Shown here one piece after another: positions 1-64,000 of a stretch of DNA of 64,000 nucleotides. Under the pieces are notes generated by a model that saw only the letters and a program-made list of their open reading frames with translations, searched no databases and was not told the origin of the DNA. A program made the translations under genes and the position numbers. Within the stretch, counting starts at the first letter, position 1, and each line of letters begins with the position of its first letter. The stretch is taken from positions 8,653-72,652 of the IMG/VR virus record IMGVR_UViG_3300044675_005311; one strand, written 5' to 3'. The DNA comes from a virus.

Positions 1-417
1 TCAATTTCTAGCCAAACCAAGGTGGGTACAAAAACCATTATTGAGAAAGTGTTTGTGCCTTACGAAGTTGAAAAGAAAATCTATGTAGATAGCAATACTT
101 TTGATACGACATACTATGTGAAAACACCAATTCCCGTGAGTTGGAAAGACTCTTGGAATTTCTTTGGCGGTGTAGTTAAACACGATGGTTTTCACATTGA
201 TAGTTTTGGCTCGGAGAACAAAATGCGAATTACGATTGGAGAGAAAAAACGCGGGATATTCCGCAAGGCCGAACCGATTGTAGAAATCAAAAATGAGAAC
301 CCAAAAACACGGGTGACGGCGATGACTAACATCACCATAAAACAAAAACCGCCCTTTTATCAAAGGTGGTGGTTCGTTGGTAGTTTGGCTTTAATGATAG
401 GAAAAATTTTATTATGA
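1..417 (+). CDS. Membrane-anchored protein, possibly spanin-like (5' truncated by window edge)
   Basis: Frame open from base 1; C-terminal hydrophobic segment WWFVGSLALMIGKILL. Confidence 0.5.
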   Translation, partial: SISSQTKVGTKTIIEKVFVPYEVEKKIYVDSNTFDTTYYVKTPIPVSWKDSWNFFGGVVKHDGFHIDSFGSENKMRITIGEKKRGIFRKAEPIVEIKNENPKTRVTAMTNITIKQKPPFYQRWWFVGSLALMIGKILL

Positions 418-686
418 TACACGAACCACATAACCGAGTTGATGTCACCACACCCCAAGGGGATGGTGTAATTTGGCTAGTTACGGAGTACGGACACGAA
501 ACCGATACGATGTACACAATCATTTTGAACAATGGTGAAATTTGGCAATTCACCCATAAGGACATTCGCGTTAAAGACAATGTAACCTTTAACCGAGTGT
601 TTACAAAAACCGAAAAGCCTAAAGTTGGTACGGCGGTGTTGAATAAATATTTTTCATCCGAAAATCCCGCTAGTGGAACTAGGTAA
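414..686 (+). CDS. Hypothetical phage protein (90 aa)
   Basis: ATGA overlap with upstream stop; in operon. Confidence 0.6.
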   Translation: MIHEPHNRVDVTTPQGDGVIWLVTEYGHETDTMYTIILNNGEIWQFTHKDIRVKDNVTFNRVFTKTEKPKVGTAVLNKYFSSENPASGTR

Positions 687-689
687 ATT

Positions 690-1607
690 ATGAAGACGGC
701 AATAGTTATTGGTGCGAGTGGTATGGACGGCTCATTAATGAGTGAGTTATTGCTTCGCAAAGGGTATATGGTTCACGGAACTTACAATACCAACAAGCGT
801 TGGGTGGAGAACTTGTTTCACCCGAATTTCACTTTGCATCATTTTGACCTAGGACGGCAAGAGTTATTCCACCAATTTGTATTGAACATCAAGCCCGATG
901 AAATTTACAACTTTGGAGGTGTTACATTTTCACCCGATAGTGAGCGATTGCCCGACTACACCAAGGAGGTGAATTACAATGCCGTAATGAAGATTATGGA
1001 GGTTTGCTTTCACAACGACATCAAGTTTTTCCAAGCATCGTCGAGCGAAGTTTTTGGCAACATCAAGAATATGGAGTTGAACGAGCAAAGTGCAAAATTT
1101 GCACATACCCCATACGCCCAAGCCAAAAAGAATGTGGATTCGTATATGGCTTATATGAGAGAACAAGGTGCTAAATTCTACAATGCTATTTCATTCAACC
1201 ACGAGTGTGAACGAAGAGGTAAGCATTTCGTCACCGCTAAAATTTGCAACTTCGTCAAGGAGTTACGACACGGGGGTTCGCCCAACTTTTTGAAACTAGG
1301 GAGTCTTGATTCAAAACGCGATTGGGGTTACGCACCCGACTTTGTAGAAGGGTTCTATGCGCAAATGCAAGGAGAACCTACCGACTTGGTATTCGCTACG
1401 GGTATAGTCCATAGCGTACAAGACATATTGGAGTGCGCCTTTGCCCCGCACGGATATAAGTGGCAAGATTACGTCACCATCGATAGCACTTTCATTCGTA
1501 ATGATGAGAGAAACAATATTTGGGGTGATTATTCCAAAGCCAAAGAAACAATTGGGTGGCAACCAACAACTAAATTTGAAGACTTTATATACAAAATGAC
1601 ACTATGA
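690..1607 (+). CDS. gmd: GDP-mannose 4,6-dehydratase
   Basis: GASGMDGS Rossmann motif, FFQASSSEVFG, PYAQAK (YxxxK), FNHE, FVTAKI, LGSLDSKRDWGYAPDFVE. Confidence 0.9.
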   Translation: MKTAIVIGASGMDGSLMSELLLRKGYMVHGTYNTNKRWVENLFHPNFTLHHFDLGRQELFHQFVLNIKPDEIYNFGGVTFSPDSERLPDYTKEVNYNAVMKIMEVCFHNDIKFFQASSSEVFGNIKNMELNEQSAKFAHTPYAQAKKNVDSYMAYMREQGAKFYNAISFNHECERRGKHFVTAKICNFVKELRHGGSPNFLKLGSLDSKRDWGYAPDFVEGFYAQMQGEPTDLVFATGIVHSVQDILECAFAPHGYKWQDYVTIDSTFIRNDERNNIWGDYSKAKETIGWQPTTKFEDFIYKMTL

Positions 1608-2218
1608 GCATACATTCCTATTCCCAATTTGGCGAAGACGCATTCATCGCCCAACACTTTGACCCCGAATACAAAGGTATTTGCATTGACATTGGCGCAA
1701 CCGATGGAATTGGAATGTCCAACACTTACCACTTTGAGCAACACGGGTGGAAGGCGATTTGCGTAGAGGCCAACCCCGCTATGATTCCGTCGCTTACTCA
1801 AACACGAGCCAATGCCGTACATTGCGCGGTTGGGCAATACAACAACAAAGAGGTGGAGTTCAAAGTAGTCACGCTAGAAGGCGGAAACCAAACGGCAATT
1901 AGTGGATTAGAACTAGACCACCGATTGATGGAGAGCCACGCGTTCTTAAATCCACAAGTGAGCATCGTGAAAGTTCCCGAAAGAACCCTAGATAGCATTA
2001 TTGAGGATTTTGATTGGGTTACTCACATCGACTTTGTATCGATTGACACGGAGGGTACGGAATTGGATGTCCTAAAAGGATTTGATATTCCCAAATGGAA
2101 CGTGAAGATGTTTTGCATCGAGAACAATTTTAACGACCCCGAAATTGAACAATACCTAGCAATGTTTGGTTATCGCAAAGTAAGGCGACACGAAGTAAAC
2201 GACTTTTATACATTATGA
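1604..2218 (+). CDS. FkbM-family SAM methyltransferase
   Basis: YSQFGED, IDIGATDG, SNT, VEANP, SIDTEGTELDVLKG motifs. Confidence 0.85.
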   Translation: MSIHSYSQFGEDAFIAQHFDPEYKGICIDIGATDGIGMSNTYHFEQHGWKAICVEANPAMIPSLTQTRANAVHCAVGQYNNKEVEFKVVTLEGGNQTAISGLELDHRLMESHAFLNPQVSIVKVPERTLDSIIEDFDWVTHIDFVSIDTEGTELDVLKGFDIPKWNVKMFCIENNFNDPEIEQYLAMFGYRKVRRHEVNDFYTL

Positions 2219-3558
2219 GCAACAATTCAATAGACAAAGGAACACAAGGATATTTAAATTCTATGAGCCAAAAGGCGATGGAAGAATATGTAAATCCCAC
2301 AATGAATAATATGAGCCACAAATTAATAAATCTAGGAAGTATGTACACTTCCGACTTTATCGAGAATCCAAGCGAAGCGAATGGTCGTAAAACATATTCA
2401 CTTGATTTGGTTTGGAACGAAAAGTTAGGATGCCCAACTTTGACCGAGCAACCGAGCGGTGAAGAAATGTGGGGTAAATATTGGTATAAGAGCGGTACAA
2501 ATAGGTCAATGAAAATTGCTCTTTCGGATGTTGTTGAAGGTGTCTTATCGCACAAGAATATGAAACACTATTTGCTTGACAAAAAGAAAGTTTGGCTTGA
2601 TATTGCTTGTAACGATGGCACTCTTTTATCTTATGTAGATAGCAAAGCGTTTTTTCTTGTTGGAATTGACCCAATTGAAGATAAATACATAGACGAGGCT
2701 AAAAAATATGCGGATAGCGTAGTTCAAGATTATTTCACCTACGACGCTTGGGGAAGAGCCAACTCACCAAAGAAGGCCGACGTGGTTACGAGTATTGCGA
2801 TGTTCTACGATTTGCAAGACCCATTCACTTTTGCACAAGACGTGGAGAAAGTGTTGGATGACTATGGTATTTGGGTGTTACAACTTTCGTACACTCCGCT
2901 TATGATTAAGCAACTTGCCTTTGATAATATTTGCCACGAACATTGGGCTTACCACAACCTTTCTAGCGTTCAAAGAATCCTTGCTACGGCGAATATGAAG
3001 GTATTAAATGCCGAGTTAAACGATGTCAACGGCGGGTCAATTCGTATTTACGCGGTCAAGAACAATGCGAATATGAATCTTTTTGGTAGTGCGCCCAAGC
3101 GCGACGTATGGGCGATGAATGTCCAAGCGTTGTTTAATAACGAGCATCATTATGAGAATTTACCAACGTGGCTAGATTTTGCCAACAATGTTTCAATCTT
3201 GAGAATGAAAACTACCGACTTTATTGATAGGGCGAATCGTGAGGGTAAAAGCATTTGGGGTTATGGCGCAAGTACAAAAGGGAATACTTTGTTGCAATAC
3301 TTTGATTTGGATAATACCAAAATAGAGGCCATAGCCGAACGCAATCCCGACAAATGGGGATTGCACACGATTGGAACGAACATAGTCATTAAAAGCGAAG
3401 AGGATATGCGTGAAGCACAACCCGACTATGTGTTGGTATTACCTTGGCACTTTATTTCGGAGTTTTTAGTGCGCGAAAGTGAGTATTTGCAAAAGGGCGG
3501 TGCGTTCATCGTTCCTTGTCCAAACTTTAAAGTTTACACTAAGGAGGATTTGAAATGA
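2215..3558 (+). CDS. NDP-sugar C-methyltransferase (class I SAM)
   Basis: LDIACNDGTLL, SIAMFYDL, FDNICHEH, NGGSIR, WGYGASTKGNTLLQY, PDYVLVLPWHF. Confidence 0.85.
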   Translation: MSNNSIDKGTQGYLNSMSQKAMEEYVNPTMNNMSHKLINLGSMYTSDFIENPSEANGRKTYSLDLVWNEKLGCPTLTEQPSGEEMWGKYWYKSGTNRSMKIALSDVVEGVLSHKNMKHYLLDKKKVWLDIACNDGTLLSYVDSKAFFLVGIDPIEDKYIDEAKKYADSVVQDYFTYDAWGRANSPKKADVVTSIAMFYDLQDPFTFAQDVEKVLDDYGIWVLQLSYTPLMIKQLAFDNICHEHWAYHNLSSVQRILATANMKVLNAELNDVNGGSIRIYAVKNNANMNLFGSAPKRDVWAMNVQALFNNEHHYENLPTWLDFANNVSILRMKTTDFIDRANREGKSIWGYGASTKGNTLLQYFDLDNTKIEAIAERNPDKWGLHTIGTNIVIKSEEDMREAQPDYVLVLPWHFISEFLVRESEYLQKGGAFIVPCPNFKVYTKEDLK

Positions 3559-3806
3559 AAGTAACCATAGGAAACTTGATTGACCAATTGAGCATCGTCA
3601 ACATAAAGATTTGGATGGCGGAGGATGTGAAACGCGACCCCAATGCAACGGATGCCGACATTGCCAAGGCCACGCGAACGACCAACATTGCCAACCAACA
3701 ACGCAACGACTTGATTCAAGCCATTGATGAAGGTATGAATGCAATAGCCAAAGGAGAAACCCAAAAACTTTACAAGCAAGGGGAGAGCAAGATGTATGGC
3801 AAGTAG
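3555..3806 (+). CDS. Small helical protein (DUF4254-like) in glycosylation operon
   Basis: TIGNLIDQLSIVNIKIW...NQQRNDLIQAID pattern. Confidence 0.55.
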   Translation: MKVTIGNLIDQLSIVNIKIWMAEDVKRDPNATDADIAKATRTTNIANQQRNDLIQAIDEGMNAIAKGETQKLYKQGESKMYGK

Positions 3807-4512: not shown

Positions 4513-4515
4513 TTT

Positions 4516-4533
4516 GTTATTTTCTAAAATAAC
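4516..4533. promoter_or_regulatory. Palindromic operator GTTATTTT-CT-AAAATAAC
   Basis: Perfect 8-bp inverted repeat immediately before a -7 promoter box; related sites recur in the window. Confidence 0.7.
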
Positions 4534-4534
4534 C

Positions 4535-4542
4535 TATATTTG
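4535..4542 (+). promoter_or_regulatory. Bacteroidota sigma-A -7 element TATATTTG
   Basis: Matches TAnnTTTG; TTTG upstream at 4513-4516; ATG 5 nt downstream. Confidence 0.75.
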
Positions 4543-4547
4543 CACCT

Positions 4548-4850
4548 ATGTCAACCAAATTAGAGTTTATACATAAGTATTCACTAGCGGAATATTCTAC
4601 CATCAAAGGTGGTAAAATGTTATTGAAAGATGGTCAACCTTGTAAGTGTCACAAGGTTGGCCCTAACATCCTACCCAACAATTTGTCGGGTGATTTAGTA
4701 CCCGTTTATGAGCATTGCACTACACATTGCACGAGGGCGTTATTGGCACTTGAAGAAGGTGTGATAATGTACATTCAAACGTGCGAAGTGCAAGCGCAAA
4801 AGTTTCCAATGGAAAATGCGGAAGCAAAATCCAAGATTGAAAAATTGTAA
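4548..4850 (+). CDS. Hypothetical protein, possible Zn-binding
   Basis: CKCH and HCTTHC clusters; own promoter. Confidence 0.6.
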   Translation: MSTKLEFIHKYSLAEYSTIKGGKMLLKDGQPCKCHKVGPNILPNNLSGDLVPVYEHCTTHCTRALLALEEGVIMYIQTCEVQAQKFPMENAEAKSKIEKL

Positions 4851-4869
4851 AAAACCACCTCCCTAAAAT

Positions 4870-21832: not shown

Positions 21833-24800
21833 ATGAAAGAATCAATAAAAAAGAAGTTCGACTCTATCGACAAATCAAAAATAAAGGTAGAATCAACAAA
21901 AGAATTTTTAGGAAAACTTGAGAAAGGACTCAATAGTAAAACACAAGAAAATGCTGACAAGGCGGAAGCATTGCTAGACAAATTCATTGCCCAAGCAAAG
22001 GCAAAGAACGCGGATATTTTCGTATCTAATAAGCCCGCACCTACACTTACACCTACCGCTAAGAAAAAGGCCAACCAAGTCGTTAAAAGCAAATTGGATT
22101 CCCTTATGGACACCATTGCTAATGACCCGTTGTTGAAGGACTTTAACAACTCGCGTAGGACAAAAGGCGGTGGAAAGAGCGACCCATTGATTGATAGCGA
22201 AAGAAAGGCTATTCAAAGTGGCCCTAGGATATCTAAGCAAGGTTGGAAGAACCAATATGGTAAAAGCACGGGTGGTCGTAAGTACTACGAGTACCGCGAA
22301 AACCGCATTGATAGAAAAGCACCAAATTACGGAAGTAGGCCGTGGCTAAAAGAGGGCGGATTCATTCACCCTAGCGATGCCAATGCCGACAAATACGTCG
22401 TGGTTGAAATCAAAGCGGATGGTTCAAGAAGAGAACACAACCATTTCGGTGATTTGGAAACGGCTAGGATGTTTGCGTCATTGAAGCGTGAGTTTTTACC
22501 AAAGGGTAGCCAATTGATGATTGAGGACAAAAACGGAAAGAATTTGTATCGTAGTTTCAAGAGTGGTGGCTATATGGCCGATGGTGGAATGATGGCTAAA
22601 GGTGGTGTAATTGAGGAGGGTGATGATGTTTTTGTAAAACCCGAAAAATTGAATGCGGAAGTAGTTCGTATTACGGGGGAAAATGTTGTAGTAGAATTTT
22701 ATAATAGAAGACCCGAAGGTGGTGAGAAGAGAGGGAATTATAAAATTAAAGACCTTAAAAAGATGGCCAATGGTGGTATGATGGCAAAGGGTGGAAAGGC
22801 TTATTATTTAAAGCCTCAGGAGAATATTGACAAGTTGTTTGAGCGTCAGAAAAAACGACTCGCTGATATGAAACGAAATGATGACCAATTGATGTTGTTG
22901 CAAGGCATAAATTACTTAAATAAAAAAAATGATGAAGATGAAGAAAAGTATGTCATTTTGTTTTTTGAGTCTGAAACACCATTTACTCGATTTGATTTAG
23001 AGTATCATAGAGAAAAATTAATCAAATTAGGGTATTTAGCAGATATAGATGAAACATATTTGGTAACACCGAAAGGTGAAGAGTATTTAAAACAACATAA
23101 TGAAAAAGAGTTGGCGAGAAAAATGGCCAATGGTGGAATGATGGCCAAAGGTGGTGTAATTGAGGAGGGTGATGATGTTTTTGTAAAACCCGAAAAATTG
23201 AATGCGGAAGTAGTTCGTATTACGGGGGAAAATGTTGTAGTAGAATTTTACGATAGAAGACCCGAAGGTGGTGAGAAGAGAGGAAATTATAAAATTAAAG
23301 ACCTAAAGAAATTGGCCAATGGTGGTATGATGGCCGATGGTGGCAAAGTTAGATGGCAAGATGTTTATGTTGGTGACAACGCATTGGTGATAGCCGAAAA
23401 CAAGATGGGTATGGTAGTGAAGCCTTATGGCCGTAGATTCCATTTGAAGTTCCCCGATGGTTCGGAAAAAACCTATTCGGCGGAAGAGTTGGAGTTTTTC
23501 AAGGATGAGGAATTTGCCAAAGGTGGTTATACCAACAAACGAAATGTACTTAGTTTGGTTGTCAAAAACCCAAATAAGAATGGGATTAAAAAATATTTGT
23601 CTATTAATCCAAAAGACTTTTTAGATGGATTGCACGAATATGCCAAAGGTGGTAAATTAACCGATGATTATACTTACATCAAGCGTAGCGAAGTTGAACA
23701 CGTCATATATCGCGATAGCAATGGTAAAGAGCAATTAGATTTCAAACCCAAGAATGGATTTTGGGTAAGCAAAAAGGCACTTGTTGATGCGGGTATGAAT
23801 GAAACAAAAGCCAAGTTTGATGCTAAAGAGGTTGCCAACGAATTAACTGCTTTATCCAACAAAGCGTGGGACACTTTATCAATTCAAAGCGGAAGTGAAA
23901 TTTATGCCTCCGACGATTTGCAAGAGAATTTAGCCGATGAATATCGAAAAGTAGGTATTGATAAAATTTACGGACAACTTACCCAACCCGAACGCAAAAA
24001 AGTAAGCGCGGTACTTACCGATGAGAACGAGCATAGTTTGAGAAACTACCTTGCGTTACGCGGTTATAATGGCGAAGCGGAATTTAAGAATTATGCAAAA
24101 ATGTACGACGAGTCATTTGCAAAATTTGGATATAGGTCAAATTGGAATCCCAAAAATGTAGATTTAAAACTTGGGTCATTTGCCAAAGGTGGTATGATGA
24201 CCGATGATGAAGGAAATTCAATTAATTTAAAAGTTGGAGATAAAGTTGTTGAATACAAAAGACCAAGTTCGGATAAACCGAAAAAACAATATGGTGGTCA
24301 AGGTGAGATAATTTCAATTAATGGCGCAATGGCTAAAGTATTTTTTGATTCAACGAACTATGAAAAATTTTATCCTTTGAAAGACCTTAAAAAGATGGCT
24401 AATGGTGGAATGATGGCCAAAGGCGGGACTATTGCCGATGGAGAAAAACTACCCGAAGATATGGGTAGGTACTTTATCAAGACTAGCAAGACCAAAGTGG
24501 TGAATATGTCCGATTTGATTCCGTTGCGCAAACGTGCTACGGGTATCGCTAATGCCGAGAAAAATATGAAGATGGCTTACGATGGAGAAATGGATAAGCG
24601 TAAGCCTATCACTATCTACAAGAGCCAACGCAAGTATCGCATAATGGATGGTAACTCTACCTATGCGGTTGCAAAAGCAAACGGATGGGAAACCATTTGG
24701 GCCGAGATTGTCAAGAACCCCAATATGAAAAACGGACTTAAACGCACCGATGATATTTTTTCAAGAGCAAAATCAATTCGTAAAGAAGGAGAGGCTTGGA

Positions 24801-32231: not shown

Positions 32232-33242
32232 ATGGACAATACAATATCCTTTGACAACCAACCCGCGTTGGATGCGGACTACAATCCGTTACAAGAGAAT
32301 GTAAAGCAAAGACCTTACACAAGACCTAATGTAGAAGTTACCGATGCTACACCAATAGCCGAACCCGTGTTCACACCCCCATCGTTTGATGAATTACAAA
32401 ATGGGTTTGAGGCGGATATGAATGGTAGTGGTGCAAAGACGGACGATAGGACGGCTTGGGGTTTGAACGATGATGATGTTTCAAGCGCGAACCCGTATGT
32501 AGAGAATTTGGATAAGAAAGACCAACGCGCAGCCTCCGCTGCGTTAACCGATGCCGTGCTTGATGGCTACTCGCAACTAAACGGATTCGGAAACAAGTTG
32601 GTTCAATTCGACCCCGCTAAGTTTGAAGAAATGATGCGTAAAGGGGAAATTGACCCCAACATCGCGTTGCCCGTTAATGGCCAAGAAATAGGGATTCTTG
32701 ATTACATCAATGAGTACAATTCGCAAACGGCGGAAGTAATTAGCGTTTCCCAAGAATTTAAGGACAAAGTTCGTCCCGTAATGATTCGGGTAATGATGAA
32801 GCGCGGTATCGGTATGACCGATGAGCAATTACTCGCTTACTATTTCGGTGTCGATATGTTAACCAAGGGTGCTATGATTTACGGATTGCGTAAACAAAAC
32901 GCCTCGTTGATTGAAACACTTAAAGAAATGAGTAGCGGTTATACCCGACCAAGTACTCCCCCGCCCGCGCGTGAAAGTCAACCCACCCAACCTACATACG
33001 AAGAACCCGCGCCACAACCCCGTCAAGAAGCGAAGTCCGAGCGTCAATATGTAGAACCCGAAGAGGTGCAAGTGATTAAAGAAGAACCCGTACAAGATGC
33101 GGTAGTCGTTGATGAGTCAATTAGAAAAGCCCGTCAAAGACGACCCGCGCCACAATTCGGCGATACCGCTATTTTGTCGCAAATGGAAGATATTGCAAGT
33201 GGTAAAGTCAAAGGCGCACGAGGACGGAGGAAGAAAGAATGA
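32232..33242 (+). CDS. Hypothetical protein coupled to packaging ATPase
   Basis: ATGA overlap with ATPase; acidic N-terminus, Pro-rich C-terminus. Confidence 0.7.
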   Translation: MDNTISFDNQPALDADYNPLQENVKQRPYTRPNVEVTDATPIAEPVFTPPSFDELQNGFEADMNGSGAKTDDRTAWGLNDDDVSSANPYVENLDKKDQRAASAALTDAVLDGYSQLNGFGNKLVQFDPAKFEEMMRKGEIDPNIALPVNGQEIGILDYINEYNSQTAEVISVSQEFKDKVRPVMIRVMMKRGIGMTDEQLLAYYFGVDMLTKGAMIYGLRKQNASLIETLKEMSSGYTRPSTPPPARESQPTQPTYEEPAPQPRQEAKSERQYVEPEEVQVIKEEPVQDAVVVDESIRKARQRRPAPQFGDTAILSQMEDIASGKVKGARGRRKKE

Positions 33243-34051
33243 GAGAACCGCTATTAGGGGTTGCGGTTGGCCGTAAGGGCGTGGGCAAGTCTTGGACTAC
33301 CGACAAACTTATTGCCAATTATGTGTCGGGAAACCCCGCTAGTGGTATCTTAGGGCGTAAAGCGTTAATACTAGATGTTAACGATGAATATACCCACATT
33401 AAGGGTATAGCAATTAAAGACTTGATTCGTTTTTCCGTACACCCAATGGTGGAGGCTAGAAGGGTGCGACCTTTTCATCCTAACGGAAAAAAGATGACTT
33501 TGGATGACCTCGCCACTACGTTAAATATAATTCTAGACACATTTAGTGGTGGGTTGTTATTGATTGAAGATATTAACCGATTTGTAAGCGATATGATGCC
33601 TCAAGATTTAATGGGTGCTATCGCAACAAACCGACATAGGGATTTGGACATTATTCTCCACTATCAAGGTATTGGTCGTATAGGGCCGAAGGTGTGGCAA
33701 AACATCAATTGGTTGCGTTTCCATAAAATTACGGAAAGTTCCAAAAGACACCAACGTAAATATGAAGACAAATATGAGTTAATTCGTATTACCGAAATAA
33801 TGGTCGACACTCAATATTTTGGTGGCAATGAAAGATTCTACCAATATGTAGATTGTGAGAATATGAAGTTGCAAGGAAAGGTGGATGATAAAATGTTTAG
33901 CGACGCTTGTAAAGCGTATTTGAATGAGAATTATCGACGAACTATTACTCCAATGTTACAATTACGCGGTGTTGGTGGTAAAAAGCAATATACACACGAT
34001 TCCGCAATCACTCACGAGTTGGGTAGATTGAAGAAAATGTACTTAAAATAA
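33239..34051 (+). CDS. A32/P9-like FtsK-HerA genome packaging ATPase
   Basis: Walker A GRKGVGKS near the N-terminus, ILDVNDEY, Walker B LLLIED, NRHRDLDIILHYQ; 270 aa. Confidence 0.75.
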   Translation: MREPLLGVAVGRKGVGKSWTTDKLIANYVSGNPASGILGRKALILDVNDEYTHIKGIAIKDLIRFSVHPMVEARRVRPFHPNGKKMTLDDLATTLNIILDTFSGGLLLIEDINRFVSDMMPQDLMGAIATNRHRDLDIILHYQGIGRIGPKVWQNINWLRFHKITESSKRHQRKYEDKYELIRITEIMVDTQYFGGNERFYQYVDCENMKLQGKVDDKMFSDACKAYLNENYRRTITPMLQLRGVGGKKQYTHDSAITHELGRLKKMYLK

Positions 34052-34172: not shown

Positions 34173-34226
34173 CTATCGACTTGCGAATGGTCTGTGCTAT
34201 TTAATGCAAGGAAAAAGAACAATAAA

Positions 34227-34386: not shown

Positions 34387-35088
34387 ATGAGTATTCGCAA
34401 GTATCTCGCAGACGCACAAAGAAGTGCGCACGAGGGTTTCGTAAATGCCGACGGGTTCTTTGACGATGATTTGTCATTCACCGCAGGCGAAGATTTTATG
34501 TCCGCTAATGGCGGTGATGGGGCAATGAGTCCTATGGCCCCAACTTCTCAACCTTACATCATCACTGTAACCAACACGGGTTCGGCGGTAAGTAACTTTG
34601 ACATCCTTGGTTCTTATGAGTATATCAACTCGGCTAACTTTAACTCAAGTGGTAATTACGTAACGGGTGCTTTGACGATTTCGTCTTCTATCCCTAACGT
34701 AACTTACCAACAAGCGTTAAACCAATTTATGATTCAACCTTTTAGCGTAGGTTTGACTTATATTCAGTCTTCTTCACAGACTCAATTGTTGCAAACTTTA
34801 AGCGTTCAAACTAAAGACGCGAATGGTAATTTGGCTCAAAAGCCCCTCATCCCAACAATCGATCCGTACCAGCAACAGACGGGCGTTTTAGCGATGCGGT
34901 ATGGGTATAGAATTGATGGTTACACAAAAATTATCATCAACTCTATCTTGGCTTCTACCACTGTTAACTTCTACTTGTACCCAAGTGATAACATCAACTT
35001 GAGTCGTGGATTAGCGGGTAAGGCGGTATCTCGTGACTTCGCTTCCCCTGGAATCGTGCGTTCACAGCCCGTTAAATTGGTAGGTTAA
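34387..35088 (+). CDS. Putative major capsid protein (single jelly-roll-like) with acidic N-terminal propeptide
   Basis: Next to packaging ATPase; own promoter and strong terminator; high-expression codons; beta-strand rich; paralogs at 50231 and 54678. Confidence 0.6.
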   Translation: MSIRKYLADAQRSAHEGFVNADGFFDDDLSFTAGEDFMSANGGDGAMSPMAPTSQPYIITVTNTGSAVSNFDILGSYEYINSANFNSSGNYVTGALTISSSIPNVTYQQALNQFMIQPFSVGLTYIQSSSQTQLLQTLSVQTKDANGNLAQKPLIPTIDPYQQQTGVLAMRYGYRIDGYTKIIINSILASTTVNFYLYPSDNINLSRGLAGKAVSRDFASPGIVRSQPVKLVG

Positions 35089-43339: not shown

Positions 43340-43340
43340 T

Positions 43341-45110
43341 ATGCCACAAGTAACCAAATCACTATCGGGAAATATCGAGGTACTAAGTGCCAACGGGTTG
43401 TCAACTTTTGTAGACGATAACGACGGCCTACTCAAAATCAAAGATACAAATGGTATCGTTCAACCTATAACCGACTACACGGGCGGTGGGAGTGGTGGAG
43501 GTGTTGCGGGTTCATTGAGAACCTATAATTGTTTACCATTGACCTCGTCGCTAACGTGTATTAGTGATGGTTGTGGGAATATAAGCCCACTTAAATTGTC
43601 AACTTGCTTTATGACCAACTATGGTAATGGTGGCGTTACAAGTAATGTGGTTTTTGGAGATGGCGTTTTACAAGCAAATACAACGGGTAGTGAATTGAGC
43701 GCATTCGGTAATGATGCGTTGAAGTGCAATAGTACGGGTACGGCAAATAGCGCGTTTGGTAGAGGGGCATTGTTGTCTACTACAAGCGGTTCTTATAACA
43801 CGGCTTTTGGTGTTGTGGCCTTAGAAAATAATACAACGGGTGCATTAAATAATGCGGTCGGAGTTTCTTCATTACGATACAATACAACGGGTAGTTTTAA
43901 CAATGCTTTTGGTACTTTAGCATTAAGACAAAATACCACGGGTGATAACAACAATGCTTTTGGATTAAGTGCATTACAAAACAATGTATCGGGAACTCAA
44001 AATGTTGCGATAGGTACACAAAGTTTATTGAGTAACACAACGGGTAGCAATAATATTGGAGTAGGTACAGCGTCATTGGGTGCAAATCTTGTGGGTAGTG
44101 GTAATACCGCCGTTGGTAGGAATGCTCTTAGTAGTAATACTAATTCAAGCAATAGTGCATTTGGTTTTTGTGCTTTGACAACTAATTCAAGTGGAGGATT
44201 TAACACGGCAATAGGCACACAATCCTTATTCTCAAATACTACCGCATCTTGTAACACCGCTATGGGCTATCAAGCGGGATATTCAAACACAACCGCCGTT
44301 AACAACTCATTCTTCGGTTCTAATGCGGGTCGTACAAATACCACGGGTGGTGGGAACACCGCAATTGGTACTTGTGCCTTTAATTTGAACTCTACGGGAA
44401 CGGGTAATACGGCATTGGGTTACGTAGCGTTGCAAAACAATACCAACTCGAATAACACGGGTCTTGGCTATCGCTCTCTTATTTGTAACACAAGCGGTTC
44501 TCAAAATACGGGGGTTGGTGTGGATGCTCTTTTTGGCAATACAACCGCATCGGGTAGTGTGGCCGTCGGGTATCAAGCGTTAAATTTTAATAACGCGGAT
44601 TGTAATACCGCCGTAGGTTATCAAGCGGGATTTAACAATAGCACGGGAAGTATTGTTGCTTTTGGCAATAAAGCGGGATTCTCAAATTGTACGGGAATAA
44701 ATAATACCGCAATAGGATTTCAATCGTTGTGTGCAAACAGCACGAACAACAATAATAGCGCAGTGGGGTATCAAGCATTATTATGCACCACTGGCGCTAA
44801 TAACACCGCTTTTGGATATCAAGCAGGTTGTGGCAATACGGGAGGGGGGAGTAATGTTTTTATAGGATTACAAGCGGGGGCTACTAATATGTTGGGGGCA
44901 AGTAATTCACTTCTAGGCTATCAGACAGATACAGGCACGTTTAGCGGTAGTGTTATTTTAGGTCGAAATGCAACAGCAACAGCAAATAACCAATTTGTAG
45001 TAGGTAGTGCTGCAATAAACGCAGGTGCAGTTACGACGGAAGTCAATACCTCTTCTAAAGTATGGAACGTAGTAATTAACGGAGTAGCACAAAAGATTTT
45101 ATTAGCATAA
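43341..45110 (+). CDS. Beta-helical fibre/spike protein (NTAxG repeats), Cys-rich
   Basis: About 14-aa repeats N(T/S)A(F/V/I)GxxAL..NT(T)G. Confidence 0.75.
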   Translation: MPQVTKSLSGNIEVLSANGLSTFVDDNDGLLKIKDTNGIVQPITDYTGGGSGGGVAGSLRTYNCLPLTSSLTCISDGCGNISPLKLSTCFMTNYGNGGVTSNVVFGDGVLQANTTGSELSAFGNDALKCNSTGTANSAFGRGALLSTTSGSYNTAFGVVALENNTTGALNNAVGVSSLRYNTTGSFNNAFGTLALRQNTTGDNNNAFGLSALQNNVSGTQNVAIGTQSLLSNTTGSNNIGVGTASLGANLVGSGNTAVGRNALSSNTNSSNSAFGFCALTTNSSGGFNTAIGTQSLFSNTTASCNTAMGYQAGYSNTTAVNNSFFGSNAGRTNTTGGGNTAIGTCAFNLNSTGTGNTALGYVALQNNTNSNNTGLGYRSLICNTSGSQNTGVGVDALFGNTTASGSVAVGYQALNFNNADCNTAVGYQAGFNNSTGSIVAFGNKAGFSNCTGINNTAIGFQSLCANSTNNNNSAVGYQALLCTTGANNTAFGYQAGCGNTGGGSNVFIGLQAGATNMLGASNSLLGYQTDTGTFSGSVILGRNATATANNQFVVGSAAINAGAVTTEVNTSSKVWNVVINGVAQKILLA

Positions 45111-51488: not shown

Positions 51489-54400
51489 ATGAGTACTAAC
51501 AAAACCATTGGTGGACTTTCCGTCCTATCAAGTGCTAATATAAAAGGATGCTATTCGTTACCCGTATGGAATAGTGATGCGGAAACTACACAAAGCGCGT
51601 GTATTACGGATATTCTAGCGGGTGTATCTTCAATTTATACATTAGGAAGCGGGACTTGTTCTTCGCTTCGTTGTGGGGTAAGCAACACCGCAAGTGGTAA
51701 TTACTCGGCATCGTTAGGAGGTCGTTTGAATTGCGCTACGGGAGTATTCTCTTCGGTTGTTGGTGGTTGTGCAAACAAGTCAATAGGTTACGGCTCTTCT
51801 ATTGGAGGTGGTGTAAATAATTGTGTTTCACTTGCTTGTTATTCAACAATTGGTGGAGGAGTAAATAATTTTATAAATATTCCATATGGAACTTCTACGG
51901 GGTCATTTATTGGGGCGGGTTCGGGAAATACCATTTGTTCAAATTGTGCTTTTATTGGCGGGGGGTCGGGAAATGTAGTAACAGGTAATGATGGTTTTCA
52001 AGTCATTACGGGGGGGCAAAATAATAATATTAACGCAGCGGGATATTCTTTTATTGGTAATGGATTGTCTAATAGCATTGCGGGTGGCGGATTAGGATTT
52101 AATGTTATTGGAGGGGGAAGAACTAATACCGCAAGTGGTGGGTATGCCCTAATTACTGGTGGTTTATCAAATACCGCCACGGGAATTTCGTCCGCTATTT
52201 TAGGAGGAGGAAGTAACACCGCAAGTGGTGCTTGTTCAATCGTTGGTGGTGGTAATATTAACTGTGCTACATCAAATTGGTCATCAGTAGTAGGAGGGGA
52301 AAATAACAGGGCTACGAATTCATTATCTTCTGTTGTAGGCGGATTTGGAAATATTGCATCAGGTTATGCAAGTTCAATAAGTGGTGGAGTAAGTAATAAT
52401 ACAACTTGTCATAATTCTTTTATTGGTAATGGTAAATTAAATACTGCAAGTAATTATTATGCAGCAGTAGTAGGAGGATGCGGTAATATAGCATCGGGTA
52501 ATAGTTCAATAATTGCAGGTGGTCGTTGTAACGTAACTACGGGGTCATTTTCGGGAATTTTAGCGGGTCAATTAAATTGCGCCACAAATTCTTGGTCATC
52601 GGTTTTAGGTGGTTGTAACAATTGCGCCACGGGAGTATTCTCATCGGTAGTTGGCGGTTGTGGAAACCAAGCCACGGGTTATGGTAGTTTTGTTGGGGGT
52701 GGTATAAGTAACTGCGCCACGGGTCAATGTTCAACTGTATTGGGTGGTTTTTGCTCTAAAGCCACGGGAGATTGTTCTACGGCATTAGGAGTTCAATCTT
52801 GTGCTACAAGTCTTAGTAATGCCTTTGGTATTCAAGCAAGGGCAACGGGATTTAATTCATTGGCAATAGGAACTTCTGCTAGTGCTACAAGTACGGGTGG
52901 TGTTGCTTTAGGTATTAATGTTCAGACCGCAAGTGGCATAGCAATAGGGTCTAGTGCGTTATCAAGCGGTTTGGGTTCAATTGCAATAGGTGAATCAACA
53001 GCATCAGGGGGTTGTGCGGTTGCAATAGGTGCTTTCAACTGTGCAACTGGACTAGGTGCATTAGTTATTGGAGGTAATTGCAACAAAGCCCTTGGTTCTC
53101 CATATAGTTCCGTAACGGGCGGTTTTTCAAATTGCGCGGTTGGTTGTTTGTCTTTCATTGGCGGTGGTCGTAACAATTTAGCGTGTGGCGTTTGTTCTTT
53201 CATAGGAGGTGGTCACGATAATACGACTACGGGTCGTGATAGCGGTGTGGCGTTTGGTCATACTAACATTGCGGGTGGATGTTGTTCGGCGGTTTTAGGA
53301 GGTAATAACAATTGCGCGTGTGGAATTAGGTCAATCGTTGTAGGAGGATTTTCAAACGCTTCTACTTGTGATGATTCGGTTGTTGTTGGCGGTTATGATA
53401 ATTTATCAAGTGGGGCGGAAAGTTTTGTAGGCGGTGGTTGTGTAAACCAAGCAACAAACAATTGGTCATCCGTTTTAGGCGGTTGTGTTAACTGCGCCAC
53501 GGGAGTATTCTCATCGGTAGTAGGTGGTTGTGGGAATAGAGTAAGCCAATATGGTGGATTTGTTGGAGGAGGTATTGGAAATAATGTGTGCCTTGTTTAT
53601 ACTGCTGATTTAGGACTAGGTAATCAAGGCGTAATTGTCGGTGGTAACAATAATACAGTTTGTAGATTTGGAGGAATCCTTACGGGGAATACTAATAGTG
53701 TATATAACGGAGGTGTTGTTTTACAAGGTTCAAATAATTTTGCACAAAATGGTGGAACAGTGTTAAGCGGGTATTCAAGTTGTGCAAATGGAGGTAATAG
53801 CATCGCAAATGGTCAATGTGTTTGTGCATTGGGAGGTTTTAGCATTGCAAATGGTTTATTGTCAACCGCAAGTTGTAATTATTCTTTTGCTTGGGGTAGA
53901 AATCAATCGGCAAGTTGTAAATCAATGGCTTTTGGTGGATTTAATACCGCGAGTGGTTGTTATTCTATTGCCTTAGGAGGCGCATTTTCACAAGGACATC
54001 AAGTAACGGGAAATTATAGTAATGTAGTTGGGGGTCAAAATAATTGCACTACAAATACATATACATCGGTATTAGGTGGATGTGGTAATACGGCATCGGC
54101 ATACGCTTCAAGTGTATTGGGTGGATATGGAAATATCGCTTGTGGTTGTTTTTCATCAACGATAGGTTCAAATTCTTTGGCTTACTTATATGGTCAAAAC
54201 GCTTTGGCAAGTGGTCAATTTAGTGCTAGGGGTGATGCTCAATCTTCTACATTGATAAGTCGTAGGTCGGCGGGTTCTTTAACAAGTGGTGCGACTATGA
54301 CACTTTCGTTGGATGGAACGGGTACTACCAACTTAATTATTCCACCAACGGGTAAAACTTGGGCGGTAAAAATTCAATATGCATCGAGAGTAGTAGGTGT

Positions 54401-61305: not shown

Positions 61306-61953
61306 ATGGGATTTTTTGCAAACTTAATTACCGACCCTTATAAGCCAAGTAACGGCAAGTGGTTATTCGTTGGCGATTCACAAACCAATAAAATGGCGAC
61401 CAACTATGTTGCGCAATTGAAAAATTCCGTAGGCTTTACCAATTTCAAAATCGTTCAAAAGGATGGTGCTACAACCGATTGGATTCTTGCCGAACTCAAA
61501 AAGGAATTGGCTAGTAACCCTACCTACGACTATGTGGTGGTATGGGGTGGTTACAATGATATGTACGGGCGTGTATTACCCGAAAGGGCAAGAGTAACCG
61601 CCATCGCTAATATCAAGCAAATGGTATCTCTTATAAGGGCGGGCAAGGGCGCATTCGGATTGCCTCGAAAAGCAATTGTTGTCAACTTGCATTGCGACTC
61701 GTTAAGAGCGGAGAGTGCGCGATTTGCAAACAACGAGGCTCAAACCTCACTATTGTATGCCGACATTTTGAAGTCGGGTGCAAACTACGTTGTTCCAACA
61801 CGCGCTATCACGGGCGGTTGCCCCAAAGACTTAAACGCTTTGAAAACCAATCGCGCTACCTATTGTACCAAGGGCGACCCTATATGTCACCTTAACTCCG
61901 TTGGCAATAAAGCCATCGCTACTAACATCGCACAAAAACTCAAATGGATTTAA
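61306..61953 (+). CDS. SGNH/GDSL hydrolase
   Basis: FVGDSQT, GATT, WGGYND, DPICHLN. Confidence 0.8.
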   Translation: MGFFANLITDPYKPSNGKWLFVGDSQTNKMATNYVAQLKNSVGFTNFKIVQKDGATTDWILAELKKELASNPTYDYVVVWGGYNDMYGRVLPERARVTAIANIKQMVSLIRAGKGAFGLPRKAIVVNLHCDSLRAESARFANNEAQTSLLYADILKSGANYVVPTRAITGGCPKDLNALKTNRATYCTKGDPICHLNSVGNKAIATNIAQKLKWI

Positions 61954-62561
61954 GAAATGTCGTAATAGCGTTGGGTGTAGTAGTCGGCATTTATATTGCT
62001 ACTACTTTGACCAAGATAAACCCCAAGGGCAAGCGTGTCGCCGTCATCGGTGATTCGCATTCCGCATTGTTCGGAAATGGTTGGCAAGACACTCTTGCTT
62101 CAAAATACAACTTTAAATTACAAAACCTCGCTATCGGTGGTAAGTCAACACCTTGGATGGTGACGACATTAAGTAAATTCTACAAAGACGGCAACAAAGC
62201 GGACATCGTATTTATTTATGGGGGCGCAAACGATTCATTTAGTTTGGTTAAATCAAGCGATACTCTTAAAAACATTCAAACAATGGTGGACTTGGTTCGT
62301 TCCAAAGGGGGTAAGCCAATTGTAATAGCGGGATTCAATTATGAAAAAGCGGTTAAACCTAAAGTGGTTGAGAAATACGATGAGGGTATTGCCAAATTTA
62401 TGAAATTGCAAGACGACATAAAGTCTAATATCAAGGGCGCAACAATTGTCGCCCGTTGGGAAGAGGTCGATGCAAAAAGCACGGGCGGTGATGGTTTCCA
62501 TTTGCCAAAATCTAGTCAAACGCTATTTGCGGATTACGTTGCTAAAAAGGTATTTATATGA
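61944..62561 (+). CDS. Membrane-anchored SGNH/GDSL hydrolase
   Basis: TM, IGDSHS, AIGG, YGGAND, DGFHL. Confidence 0.85.
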   Translation: MDLRNVVIALGVVVGIYIATTLTKINPKGKRVAVIGDSHSALFGNGWQDTLASKYNFKLQNLAIGGKSTPWMVTTLSKFYKDGNKADIVFIYGGANDSFSLVKSSDTLKNIQTMVDLVRSKGGKPIVIAGFNYEKAVKPKVVEKYDEGIAKFMKLQDDIKSNIKGATIVARWEEVDAKSTGGDGFHLPKSSQTLFADYVAKKVFI

Positions 62562-63229: not shown

Positions 63230-63230
63230 T

Positions 63231-63584
63231 CTACAATAACTTTTGCAAGTCTTCTCTAAGTTTATCGAACGTAAGCATTGACGCTTCAAAGGCGCAATAA
63301 TCCAAAACATCCAAGTTTTTAGATTCAATTTGAGTTTCAATATTTTTCATTGCAACTTCAAATCCACTAATCAAAATTCTCCTATGAAATGTATTGCTTG
63401 CGTTTTCAACGGAATGTAGGAGTGCGCCTCCCATTCCGATAACTCGTGTTTCGCAACACTTCAAATAGTTAAAACTAACACCCTCGTCGTCGTAGGTGTA
63501 AAATTGCTCTTTGGATTCATACTCGTGCCAAATTTGTTCTAGTGCTTCGGCTACTACATTGATAAGGTTGTCGTTTGATTTCAT
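63231..63584 (-). CDS. Hypothetical protein
   Basis: ORF convergent on lysozyme gene. Confidence 0.55.
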   Translation of the reverse strand: MKSNDNLINVVAEALEQIWHEYESKEQFYTYDDEGVSFNYLKCCETRVIGMGGALLHSVENASNTFHRRILISGFEVAMKNIETQIESKNLDVLDYCAFEASMLTFDKLREDLQKLL

Positions 63585-63794
63585 CTTATGGTGTCTTAAA
63601 TACAAAACAAACTAACATCACAAACCCTTGATTTACAAGCGAAACTTAGTGAATGACACTTTTTTGTTTGTAAATTATGGTTATTATAAAAAATAATCAT
63701 AAATCGTATATAATTCGGATATTTACGTCTATATTCGTATCGCTTTTGAAGTTCTCTTGAGTGGTGTCAAGAGAGGATTGTTTCATCATAGAGA

Positions 63795-63822
63795 AAGGGG
63801 TAAGAGGTTGCCCCTTTTTTTT
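63795..63822 (+). terminator. Intrinsic terminator
   Basis: AAAGGGGTAA/TTGCCCCTTT stem plus T run. Confidence 0.6.
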
Positions 63823-63834
63823 TATCTTTGAATT

Positions 63835-64000
63835 ATGAAAGTTTATTCAATTAACGATAGCACCAATGTTCGCGATAACAATTATGTCAACAACGGGTTC
63901 TTCATCAATAATGTATTCGTAAGGGTTTATGGCAAGAACAAATTGTTGGGTAAGGTCAGTAAGGTCGTGAATGACTATTTCTACGAAGAGGAGCAGAGAG
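63835..64000 (+). CDS. Hypothetical protein (3' truncated)
   Basis: ATG 4 nt after TATCTTTG; frame open to window end. Confidence 0.55.
   Translation, partial: MKVYSINDSTNVRDNNYVNNGFFINNVFVRVYGKNKLLGKVSKVVNDYFYEEEQR

What the first reader, a model, noticed from the sequence alone, without database searches (positions are those of the whole stretch)
1..64000. Extreme genome-wide avoidance of the trinucleotide CAG/CTG (plus GATC, AGCT, CATG, CCGG)
Seen by eye: no CAG or CTG in the first ~1 kb, where roughly 20 would be expected at this composition (rough estimate), and only sporadic ones elsewhere. Gln is nearly always CAA, and codon pairs dodge the motif (ACG GGT, GCG GAT, CCC GAA, CAC GAA, GAC CCC, AAG GCT). 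TGCA, GTAC, CTAG and GGCC are common, so the avoidance is selective. Restriction avoidance normally affects 4-6-mers, so loss of a 3-mer on both strands is unusual. Inference: selection by a host defence recognising a very short CAG-containing site, by many CAG-core R-M systems, or by a modification-dependent nuclease.
Basis: partly seen in the sequence, partly recalled or inferred. Interest (0 to 1): 0.8.

Follow-up and report, generated by a model that had tools for sequence, protein, structure and literature searches.

The report
Phage genome purged of CAG/CTG
An uncultured 73-kb bacterial virus has removed about 94% of the three-letter DNA word CAG/CTG, and every copy of four common restriction sites, by choosing codons carefully, which suggests that its unknown host cuts DNA at a target only three bases long.

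Summary
The window has 93 CAG/CTG where 1,100-1,500 are expected. AGCT, CATG and CCGG are absent and GATC occurs once. The whole 72,652-bp virus record has 106 CWG against 1,680 expected. Codon-aware nulls do not explain this: CAG 55 against 497, CTG 39 against 338.

Five or more independent assemblies of close relatives share the purge, so it is not an artefact. The sites are dodged by any synonymous route, including A/T to C/G changes at the centre, so cytosine deamination is not the cause. New CWG sites are still being removed.

The new finding is in the relatives. In 67 of 80 members of this virus family, a CAG-core word is purged: CCAG, CAGG, ACAG or the bare CAG. Bare CAG arose twice.

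My best reading is selection by host restriction-modification-type enzymes that read a CAG core. In this clade's host the target is only 3 bp, or several 4-bp readers together cover it. Host and enzyme are unidentified.

The scan has noted CAG/CTG purges before on unrelated phage DNA (I did not check those). I class this as a new variant of restriction-site avoidance.

The parts
1..64000 (.). Genome-wide depletion of CAG/CTG (93 in the window; 106 in the 72,652-bp record). AGCT, CATG and CCGG are absent. Further purged words include ACSGT, GGWCC, GTCTC, GCSGC, GGAGC and many 6-bp palindromes.
33239..34051 (+). HerA/FtsK-like ATPase gene (0 CWG). I used it as the family marker to fetch and place 97 related loci.
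   Evidence: Pfam DUF87, E=1e-4
34192..34194 (+). Intergenic CTG (in GTCTG) upstream of the capsid-candidate gene. It is kept in all 9 aligned sequences, both those that purge CWG and those that do not.
34387..35088 (+). Capsid-candidate ORF that keeps 10 CWG (O/E 0.53) and the record's only GATC (34861). Several sites (34409, 34870, 34876, 35048) are shared with clade members L004 and L005 and with relatives that do not purge CWG. Gln codons are CAA 11 to CAG 5 here, against 9 to 0 in the ATPase gene.
22800..23050 (+). Low-GC (0.29) module inside the 1,000-aa ORF, with 5 CWG where 3.6 are expected. Probably recently acquired DNA.
44700..45110 (+). C-terminal end of the tailspike-like ORF (43332-45110): 12 CWG where 9.9 are expected, so not purged. 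Probably a recent swap of a receptor-binding module (inference).
51950..53800 (+). Middle of the 1,061-aa fibre-like ORF (51489-54674): 25 CWG where 42 are expected. Probably imported DNA that is only partly purged (inference; no donor found).

Best explanation
The virus carries no DNA methyltransferase and protects itself by not containing the words its hosts' restriction enzymes read. Besides many ordinary palindromic and type IIS-like sites, its hosts carry a restriction-modification-type activity, cutting or nicking, that reads unmethylated DNA at an asymmetric CAG core. In relatives this activity reads CCAG, CAGG or ACAG(C). In the host of this clade it reads bare CAG on either strand, or several 4-bp readers together cover it. 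Every CAG/CTG therefore carries a fitness cost and is removed by whichever synonymous change is available. A few sites persist, either where another pressure opposes removal (CAG codons of the highly expressed capsid-candidate gene) or where DNA was imported recently (fibre and spike modules). What is shown: the depletion, its DNA-level and two-strand nature, that it is ongoing, its distribution across lineages, and the lack of a methyltransferase in the held record. What is inferred: that the agent belongs to the host, that methylation protects against it, and that it reads only three bases. My split within this explanation is about 0.40 for a single 3-bp reader and 0.25 for a set of CAG-core readers.
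For: (1) The size and robustness of the depletion. (2) It works through selection on the word itself. Centre A/T is replaced by C/G in NCN|G codon pairs (66 of 967 against about 60-69%). At CWG sites conserved in relatives that do not purge CWG, the clade A viruses kept 20 of 60 cells and changed the rest by many routes: 16 at the centre only, 8 CAG>CAA, only 2 to TAG. (3) Non-coding DNA and both orientations are depleted, and all 16 flank contexts lie at 0.00-0.16. (4) Selection is ongoing. Substitutions between G000 and close relatives left 11, 6 and 6 CWG differences, where nulls matched for codon position create 38.3, 41.1 and 16.3 (minimum over 500 runs: 22, 26, 6). (5) The setting is one of extreme restriction-site avoidance. 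24 of 47 core-free 6-bp palindromes have O/E below 0.3, against 3.9% of 1,684 non-palindromic 6-mers. Purged type IIS-like words such as GTCTC, GAGTC, GGTGA and CTCTTC appear across the family; their match to enzyme sites is recalled. (6) The family pattern. Of 80 family members on the ATPase tree, 36 purge CCAG, 12 CAGG, 5 both, 3 CAGG+ACAG, 1 ACAG, 10 all CWG and 13 none. CWG arose twice: clade A (9 rows, support 100/98) and L112, whose sister L117 purges only CAGG. Whole records give CCAG/CTGG 1 of 354 and 1 of 384 expected, and CAGG/CCTG 2 of 150. These are the only non-palindromic 4-mers purged in any lineage. (7) Switching between words needs hundreds of changes, and the complementary word is enriched about 1.3- to 3.3-fold. 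That is survivable under changing host enzymes but lethal for a virus-borne nuclease that changes its target. (8) Such specificities exist in print. A CCAG methyltransferase was confirmed by knock-out in H. pylori A45, and CCAG methylation was seen in T. phaeum (PMC10689673, passages). Type III ModA alleles read CG(m6A)G, AC(m6A)GC and CCTG(m6A) (PMC4525171, table); ACAGC is purged in three lineages here. The 3-bp nicking-modification systems Nt.CviPII (CCD) and Nt.CviQII (RAG) are also in print (PMC3017599, passages). (9) G000 has no match to PF00145, PF01555 or PF02086. Both near-complete relatives that purge no CAG-core word carry DNA methyltransferases.
Against: The host is unknown and no restriction or methylase gene of matching specificity was seen, so the agent is purely inferred. 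No enzyme or methylase with bare CAG/CWG specificity turned up in five text searches, and I recall none. The record keeps 106 sites. A classical double-strand cutter should still destroy such a genome, so the agent must be weak, dose-dependent (for example nicking) or rare among hosts. The link between methyltransferases and avoidance is weak: methyltransferases occur in 2 of 2 records that purge no CAG-core word against 1 of 5 independent records that do. G016 purges CCAG (6 of 144) yet carries homologues of two of the G001 methylases. CAG-core purging is nearly confined to this family: 67 of 80 members, against 1 of 44 other viral loci of 8 kb or more and 0 of 38 bacterial loci. That could also point to a cause inside the virus. 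Rusinov et al. 2018 report that avoidance is very rare for type III sites (abstract). The G000 record is estimated at 86% complete, so a methylase could lie in the missing part.
Confidence: 0.62

Rival explanations
1. The virus avoids the target of its own nuclease. The family carries or injects a frequent-cutting nuclease that destroys host DNA at CAG-core words. Each virus stays safe by lacking the word, or by methylating it in the lineages that carry methylases, as chloroviruses do.
For: CAG-core purging is close to a family trait: 67 of 80 members against 1 of 44 unrelated viral loci. The genome encodes large polyvalent virion-cargo-type proteins of mostly unknown function. Lineages that purge no CAG-core word carry methylases. 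An earlier scan note describes a comparable case in another phage (e1-5839885; not checked).
Against: No candidate nuclease was found. Pfam gives only a RecT-associated PD-(D/E)XK exonuclease and a free-standing HNH homing endonuclease that relative L011 lacks. A presence/absence screen of G000 ORFs in six relatives singled out no other gene. Close relatives purge different words while the other word is enriched about 2-fold (L102 against L104 at 80% nucleotide identity). A nuclease switching target would then cut its own genome hundreds of times. 106 residual sites, some conserved, would be self-cut.
Confidence: 0.12
2. Modification-dependent restriction. Common host methylases mark CAG-core words on viral DNA, and type IV nucleases in the next host cut the marked DNA, so the virus loses the words that get marked.
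For: It would act on both strands and be dose-dependent, which fits the tolerated residue of about 100 sites. CAG-core methylases exist.
Against: Relatives that purge no CAG-core word carry their own N6/N4 or C5 DNA methylases. Self-marking would be harmful under this model. There is no direct evidence either way.
Confidence: 0.08
3. A host function other than restriction reads the trinucleotide. Candidates are a CRISPR PAM, which would be avoided on both strands, or the primase initiation site (E. coli DnaG starts at CTG; recalled, not checked) in a virus that may replicate by protein priming.
For: Any asymmetric 3-mer avoided on both strands looks like CAG plus CTG. One relative's record is classed as having inverted terminal repeats.
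Against: No other trinucleotide falls below O/E 0.43 in any relative, although their hosts must also have primases and PAMs. The relatives purge 4- and 5-mers with exact flanks, at 1 of 354 expected, which is far stronger than reported PAM depletion (recalled). The purge sits among classic restriction words.
Confidence: 0.07
4. Mutational decay. Cytosine methylation at CWG followed by deamination erodes the word, as with CpG in vertebrates.
For: CAA, CTA, TTG and TAG are the most over-represented trinucleotides under the Markov model.
Against: Centre A/T to C/G changes dominate wherever deamination-type changes would alter the protein. Conversion to TAG or TTG was seen in only 2 of 40 changed cells in clade A and 2 of 26 in L112. 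The depletion (0.027 outside patches) goes with total loss of four palindromes. No C5 methylase was found.
Confidence: 0.02
5. Sequencing or assembly artefact at a modified motif.
For: The genome has a TET-associated glycosyltransferase and sugar genes, so some DNA modification is conceivable.
Against: Nine further contigs from separate assemblies (L002-L005, L070-L073, L084), at 77-97% nucleotide identity where measured, show the same purge. Reading frames are intact and the changes are synonymous.
Confidence: 0.01

Closest known systems
Restriction-site avoidance in non-temperate dsDNA phages (Rusinov et al. 2018, PMC6286503; abstract read)
   Same: Recognition words are eliminated completely or almost completely by synonymous change, on both strands, in a virus without its own methylase. 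AGCT, CATG, CCGG, GATC and many 5-6-mers here are textbook cases.
   Different: The word here is only 3 bp, with about 1,680 expected copies of which 94% are removed. In relatives the words are asymmetric 4-mers (CCAG, CAGG). The paper reports avoidance mainly for orthodox palindromic type II sites and very rarely for type III.
Nicking-modification systems with 3-bp sites: Nt.CviQII/M.CviQII (R^AG) and Nt.CviPII/M.CviPII (^CCD) of chloroviruses (PMC3017599, passages read)
   Same: They show that a nuclease and its methylase can work with an asymmetric 3-bp word. RAG differs from CAG by one base. Nicking would give a dose-dependent cost, which fits a tolerated residue of sites.
   Different: Those enzymes are encoded by algal viruses and the viral DNA is methylated, not purged. 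No such gene was found here, and no bacterial example is known to me.
CCAG-specific methyltransferase of Helicobacter pylori A45 and CCAG methylation in Thermacetogenium phaeum (Snapper paper, PMC10689673, passages read)
   Same: It is the same asymmetric 4-bp word that 36 of 80 family members purge alone (41 with those that also purge CAGG). This shows that bacteria do mark that word.
   Different: The organisms are different. No cognate nuclease is described in the passages I read. Bare CAG is not reported.
Phase-variable type III ModA alleles of Haemophilus influenzae: CG(m6A)G, AC(m6A)GC, CCTG(m6A) (PMC4525171, table read)
   Same: An allelic series of short asymmetric words within one gene family. 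ACAGC is purged in three lineages here (0 of 40, 0 of 40, 0 of 18).
   Different: Type III cutting needs head-to-head site pairs, and phage T7 is known (recalled) to evade it by orientation bias. The residual sites here show no orientation clustering.
Earlier notes of this scan on CAG/CTG purges in unrelated phages (e1-6089108, e1-6298963, e1-183535)
   Same: The same trinucleotide is purged genome-wide or in early modules.
   Different: They concern different viruses. They are AI notes that I did not check.

Membership tests
Restriction-site avoidance (anti-restriction by loss of sites) | The word is under-represented beyond what composition, Markov and codon-aware nulls predict | tested here: met
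   CAG 55 against 497 and CTG 39 against 338 under synonymous shuffling
Restriction-site avoidance (anti-restriction by loss of sites) | It acts on DNA: both strands, non-coding DNA too, independent of reading frame | tested here: met
   intergenic 9 of 82; sense-strand CAG 58 of 887, CTG 39 of 716; all three frames
Restriction-site avoidance (anti-restriction by loss of sites) | The avoided word is the recognition site of a restriction system present in the host | not testable with these tools
   Host unknown. No relative was found in 185,579 species genomes or in cultured phages. Only CCAG and ACAGC methylase specificities were found in print, for other bacteria.
Restriction-site avoidance (anti-restriction by loss of sites) | The sets of avoided words differ between related viruses, as expected if they track their hosts | tested here: met
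   each lineage has its own set, and the tree needs 20 label changes
Restriction-site avoidance (anti-restriction by loss of sites) | The virus does not protect itself by methylation | tested here: inconclusive
   No PF00145, PF01555 or PF02086 match in G000, but the record is about 86% complete and other methylase families were not searched
Methylation-deamination decay (CpG-like) | The losses run through C>T or G>A only | tested here: not met
   centre A/T to C/G changes are common; conversion to TAG or TTG is 2 of 40 in clade A and 2 of 26 in L112
Type III evasion by site orientation (T7 and EcoP15I, recalled) | The remaining sites all point the same way | tested here: not met
   61 CAG against 45 CTG; 50 runs against 52.7 expected, P=0.33
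3-bp nicking-modification systems (Nt.CviQII type) | A nickase gene with a cognate methylase, in the host or the virus | not testable with these tools
   Host unknown. No such gene was recognised in G000.
Phage cytosine hypermodification (TET / 5mC methylase / TAGT) | TET/JBP dioxygenase and a C5 methylase beside the glycosyltransferase | tested here: not met
   TAGT is present (PF20691, 91.9 bits), but there is no PF12851, PF00145 or PF00303 match in the record. The record is 86% complete.

The most novel reading that the evidence does not exclude
Uncultured aquatic bacteria carry a restriction (or nicking)-modification system whose whole target is the three bases CAG. That would be the shortest target of any bacterial defence. 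It would be the relaxed end of a fast-switching series of specificities (CCAG, CAGG, ACAG(C), CAG), and that series would be the main force shaping the DNA of a whole family of roughly 60-85-kb viruses. The virus word counts could then be used as a read-out to find these systems and to pair viruses with hosts.
Probability: 0.38. Interest if true: 0.8.

Novelty: new variant of a known kind. Interest (0 to 1): 0.66.

Why it matters
Restriction-site avoidance is known for 4-8-bp sites. A near-complete purge of a 3-bp word means the virus rewrote about 1,600 positions without changing its proteins, and it implies a DNA-reading defence of a specificity not described for bacteria. The family-wide series CCAG, CAGG, ACAG, CAG gives a natural experiment on how defence specificities turn over and how fast viral genomes follow. 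It also gives concrete predictions: host DNA should be methylated at every CAG, and the methylases in relatives should have assignable targets. These can be tested on native long-read metagenomes. In practice, the word profiles could link uncultured viruses to hosts through host methylomes.

Tried and rejected
Cultured relatives: megablast of 21 kb and tblastn of the ATPase and the capsid candidate against 50,697 phage records found nothing.

Host search: the ATPase alignment found no relative in one genome per species. The sugar dehydratase found only 30-38% identical homologues spread over many phyla, which says nothing about the host. Cluster names gave one 'Maribacter sp.' MAG label for a 53%-identical ATPase and otherwise only 'hypothetical protein'.

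Donors for the CWG-rich fibre patch: the only hits were two contigs at 40% identity.

Site arrangement: I tested whether residual sites cluster by orientation, as type III evasion would predict, and found no signal. By eye, from the list, close pairs of 20 bp or less were 11 in the same orientation and 7 opposite. That is not significant and was not tested formally.

Cytosine hypermodification as the cause: a TAGT gene is present, but there is no TET, C5 methylase or hydroxymethylase-like gene.

Virus-encoded nuclease: the region that differs between L102 (purges CCAG) and L104 (purges CAGG) holds ORFs without informative Pfam hits; the only hit was a marginal LPXTG-anchor match in a 68-aa L104 ORF. 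The presence/absence screen gave only the RecT and PD-(D/E)XK pair, and G001 lacks that whole genome arm.

Methylase homologues within 10 kb of the ATPase in 97 family loci: none. This is expected, because in G001 they lie at the contig end.

Literature: searches for a CWG or CAG enzyme, or for such avoidance in phages, returned nothing relevant. A search for CAGG or CCTG methylases returned only the ModA paper. Supplementary files were not opened; those of the Snapper and ModA papers may hold further motifs.

Tools not used: the look-up of sequencing runs, read laying, structure prediction, fold search, complex prediction, the protein-atlas search, the search of protein representatives and the RNA tools.


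Full report
THE OBSERVATION. The 64-kb window is bases 8653-72652 of a single 72,652-bp virus record, classed as linear and estimated 86% complete. It holds 55 CAG and 38 CTG. Base composition predicts 807 and 685, and a first-order Markov model predicts 606 and 504. No other trinucleotide falls below O/E 0.72. AGCT, CATG and CCGG are absent and GATC occurs once, where about 95-224 copies of each are expected. TGCA, GTAC, CTAG and GGCC are near normal. The first CWG in the window is at 6155. The whole record has 106 CWG against 1,680 expected.

Two codon-aware nulls on 94 ORFs leave the result intact. Shuffling synonymous codons while keeping the observed usage predicts 497 CAG and 338 CTG, against 55 and 39 observed. 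Drawing synonymous codons by composition predicts 853 and 586. Gln is CAA 790 to CAG 17, and CTG is 3 of 1,720 Leu codons. Across codon boundaries, NCN codons followed by G end in A or T in 6.8% of cases, against 58-69% otherwise. Codons before AG or TG end in C in 0.6% of cases, against 20%. Intergenic DNA (9 of 82) and both orientations on the sense strand are depleted, and so are all 16 NCWGN contexts (0.00-0.16).

NOT AN ARTEFACT AND NOT MUTATION BIAS. Using the neighbouring HerA/FtsK-like ATPase (window 33239-34051) as a marker, I fetched 17 loci from IMG/VR and 80 from JGI metagenomes. Nine contigs from other assemblies fall in the same clade: L002-L005 and L070-L073 on the tree, plus L084, which has 96% ATPase identity but was too short for the tree. 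Where I measured it, their nucleotide identity to G000 is 77-97%. Their CWG O/E is 0.06-0.09 in seven, and 0.17 and 0.23 in the two short loci L073 and L084.

At CWG positions conserved in relatives that do not purge CWG, the clade A viruses kept 20 of 60 cells and changed the rest by many routes. There were 16 centre-only changes, 8 CAG>CAA and only 2 to TAG. Together with the centre A/T to C/G dodge, this excludes decay by methyl-cytosine deamination.

Selection is still acting. The 472, 544 and 177 substitutions that separate G000 from L002, L003 and L070 left only 11, 6 and 6 CWG differences. Random placement of the same substitution types at the same codon positions creates 38.3, 41.1 and 16.3 (unmatched version).

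WHERE THE RESIDUE SITS. 63 of the 106 remaining sites lie in six patches totalling 4.1 kb (O/E about 0.7). The other 68.5 kb holds 43 sites where 1,584 are expected (0.027). Three patches look like imported DNA, which is an inference:
- the C-terminal end of the tailspike-like ORF;
- the middle of the 1,061-aa fibre-like ORF;
- a low-GC module inside the 1,000-aa ORF.

I found no donor for them.

The capsid-candidate ORF (34387-35088) is different. Its CWG sites are shared with clade members that have diverged to 77% identity, and with relatives that do not purge CWG. The shared sites include two CAG codons in a YQQQT stretch and a CCTGG, and an intergenic GTCTG is present in 9 of 9 sequences. 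In every lineage this gene uses CAG for Gln far more than the ATPase gene does. Some opposing pressure therefore holds these sites. I did not test whether it is translational or lies in a DNA or RNA element. This implies that the cost of a single CWG is modest and additive, unlike the four palindromes, which are absent even there apart from the one GATC at 34861.

THE SETTING. G000 is an extreme avoider in general. It also lacks or nearly lacks ACSGT (1 of 100), GGWCC (0 of 64), GTCTC (1 of 102), GGAGC (2 of 66), GCSGC (2 of 41) and many 6-bp palindromes. 24 of 47 core-free 6-bp palindromes have O/E below 0.3, against 3.9% of non-palindromic 6-mers. Every relative has its own set. AGCT, CCGG and GATC are missing in almost all. 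CTAG, GGCC, CGCG, GCGC, CATG and ACGT are missing in some. This is the classic footprint of restriction enzymes. G000 has no match to three DNA-methylase families, to TET or to thymidylate-synthase-like enzymes.

THE NEW RESULT: A CAG-CORE SERIES ACROSS THE FAMILY. A hierarchical word search showed that the only non-palindromic 4-mers purged in any lineage are CCAG/CTGG and CAGG/CCTG. Several purged 5-mers also have a CAG core: ACAGC, GACAG, GCAGC, CASTG and CTSAG. Whole records give CCAG/CTGG at 1 of 354 and 1 of 384 expected, and CAGG/CCTG at 2 of 150.

I built an ATPase tree of 80 rows. From 98 candidates I dropped 18 with less than 4.5 kb of sequence or an ATPase match under 240 aa. On this tree 36 rows purge CCAG, 12 CAGG, 5 both, 3 CAGG+ACAG, 1 ACAG, 10 the whole CWG and 13 none. 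The tree needs 20 label changes. Many rows are near-copies: only 68 of the 80 proteins differ.

Whole-CWG purging arose twice:
- once in clade A, whose sister clade purges only CCAG;
- once in L112 (25 of 173), whose sister L117 purges only CAGG at 78% nucleotide identity.

L016 and L011 are intermediate (CCAG 0.02, CAGG 0.10, ACAG 0.21). In viruses that purge one of these 4-mers the complementary word is enriched about 1.3- to 3.3-fold. No other trinucleotide is below 0.43 anywhere.

Outside the family the trait is rare: 1 of 44 other viral loci of 8 kb or more and 0 of 38 bacterial loci. Those viral loci were chosen because they carry a methylase homologue, so the sample is biased.

WHAT IT MOST LIKELY IS. 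The simplest account is that host restriction-modification-type enzymes read an asymmetric CAG core, with flanking specificity that differs between hosts. The host of clade A would have either a reader of bare CAG or several 4-bp readers that together cover it.

Such specificities exist in print:
- A CCAG methylase was confirmed by knock-out in H. pylori A45, and CCAG methylation was seen in T. phaeum (PMC10689673, passages).
- Type III ModA alleles read CG(m6A)G, AC(m6A)GC and CCTG(m6A) (PMC4525171, table).
- Chloroviruses have 3-bp nicking-modification pairs, Nt.CviPII (CCD) and Nt.CviQII (RAG) (PMC3017599, passages).

A nicking or otherwise weak enzyme would make the cost depend on dose. 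That would explain why about 100 sites are tolerated while the 4-bp palindromes are at zero. This step is inference.

The two near-complete relatives that purge no CAG-core word carry DNA methylases. G001 has three tandem beta-class N6/N4 enzymes and G005 has a Dcm-type enzyme. G000, G002, G003/G010 and G014 have none. However, G016 purges CCAG and still carries homologues of two of the G001 enzymes. The link is therefore only suggestive: 2 of 2 against 1 of 5.

AGAINST THIS READING. The host and the agent are unknown. I found no CAG or CWG enzyme in print. The trait is nearly private to the family, which keeps a virus-intrinsic cause alive, such as avoidance of the virus's own nuclease. I rate that rival lower for two reasons. 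No candidate gene emerged. And close relatives purge different words while the other word is enriched, so a virus-borne nuclease that changed its target would shred its own genome.

Modification-dependent restriction, PAM or primase-site avoidance, deamination and artefact are discussed under the rivals. The residual sites show no orientation clustering.

NOVELTY AND EARLIER NOTES. Site avoidance is well known (Rusinov et al. 2018, abstract). A purge of a 3-bp word, and a family-wide series of asymmetric CAG-core words, is to my searches not in print. Earlier notes of this scan describe CAG/CTG purges in unrelated phages. I did not check them, and they are not independent evidence, but they suggest that the agent is not unique to this host.

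I therefore could not test whether the fibre and spike patches are private to G000.

Noticed in passing
window 690-7362 and L001 5905-7668: A sugar-modification cluster: a GDP-mannose-dehydratase-like enzyme, an FkbM methyltransferase, a C-methyltransferase, a TET-associated glycosyltransferase (PF20691, 91.9 bits), a further glycosyltransferase at 6100-7362 (PHROG hit only) and a GT2 glycosyltransferase. No TET/JBP, C5 methylase or hydroxymethylase gene is in the record. The target (DNA, virion or host surface) is unknown.
   Followed up: partly
window 34387-35088 and 34192: The capsid-candidate gene keeps CAG codons (YQQQT) and a CCTGG in every lineage, including those that purge CWG. An intergenic GTCTG upstream is invariant in 9 of 9 sequences. 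This may be a regulatory or structural nucleotide element.
   Followed up: partly
window 46505-47083: A free-standing HNH_3 + NUMOD4 homing-endonuclease gene sits between two conserved genes. It is precisely absent from relative L011, yet it holds no CWG, so it has been resident long or came from a similar virus.
   Followed up: partly
window 9586-14256 and 24796-25950: A 1,556-aa polyvalent-type protein with ART-PolyVal and DUF5661 domains, and a RelA/SpoT-like synthetase fused to a DUF2958-like region.
   Followed up: no
window 47087-48752; 61306-62561: A sulfotransferase and a small APS-kinase-like gene lie close together, separated by a 121-aa ORF. Two GDSL-type acylhydrolases are also present. 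These are more glycan-modifying functions than is usual for a virus of this size.
   Followed up: no
G001:C1:1-3262 (loci L153, L155): Three tandem beta-class N6/N4 DNA methylase genes lie at the end of a relative that purges neither CCAG, CAGG nor CATG. G016 has homologues of two of them, purges CCAG and partly purges CATG (52 of 166).
   Followed up: partly
whole record; also L002, L004, L005: ACCGT/ACGGT (ACSGT) is almost absent (1 of 100 in G000; 0 of 40 in L004+L005). I recall no enzyme with this site.
   Followed up: no
record G010 (locus L010): IMG/VR classes this 84,420-bp, 100%-complete relative as having inverted terminal repeats, which hints at protein-primed replication in the family. 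The records I held in full showed no such repeats at their ends.
   Followed up: partly
L112 (metagenome contig, 7.7 kb): A second, independent whole-CWG purge (25 of 173) occurs in a lineage with only 56% ATPase identity to G000. Its sister L117 purges only CAGG.
   Followed up: partly
window 8344-8416: A tRNA-Met (CAT) gene.
   Followed up: no
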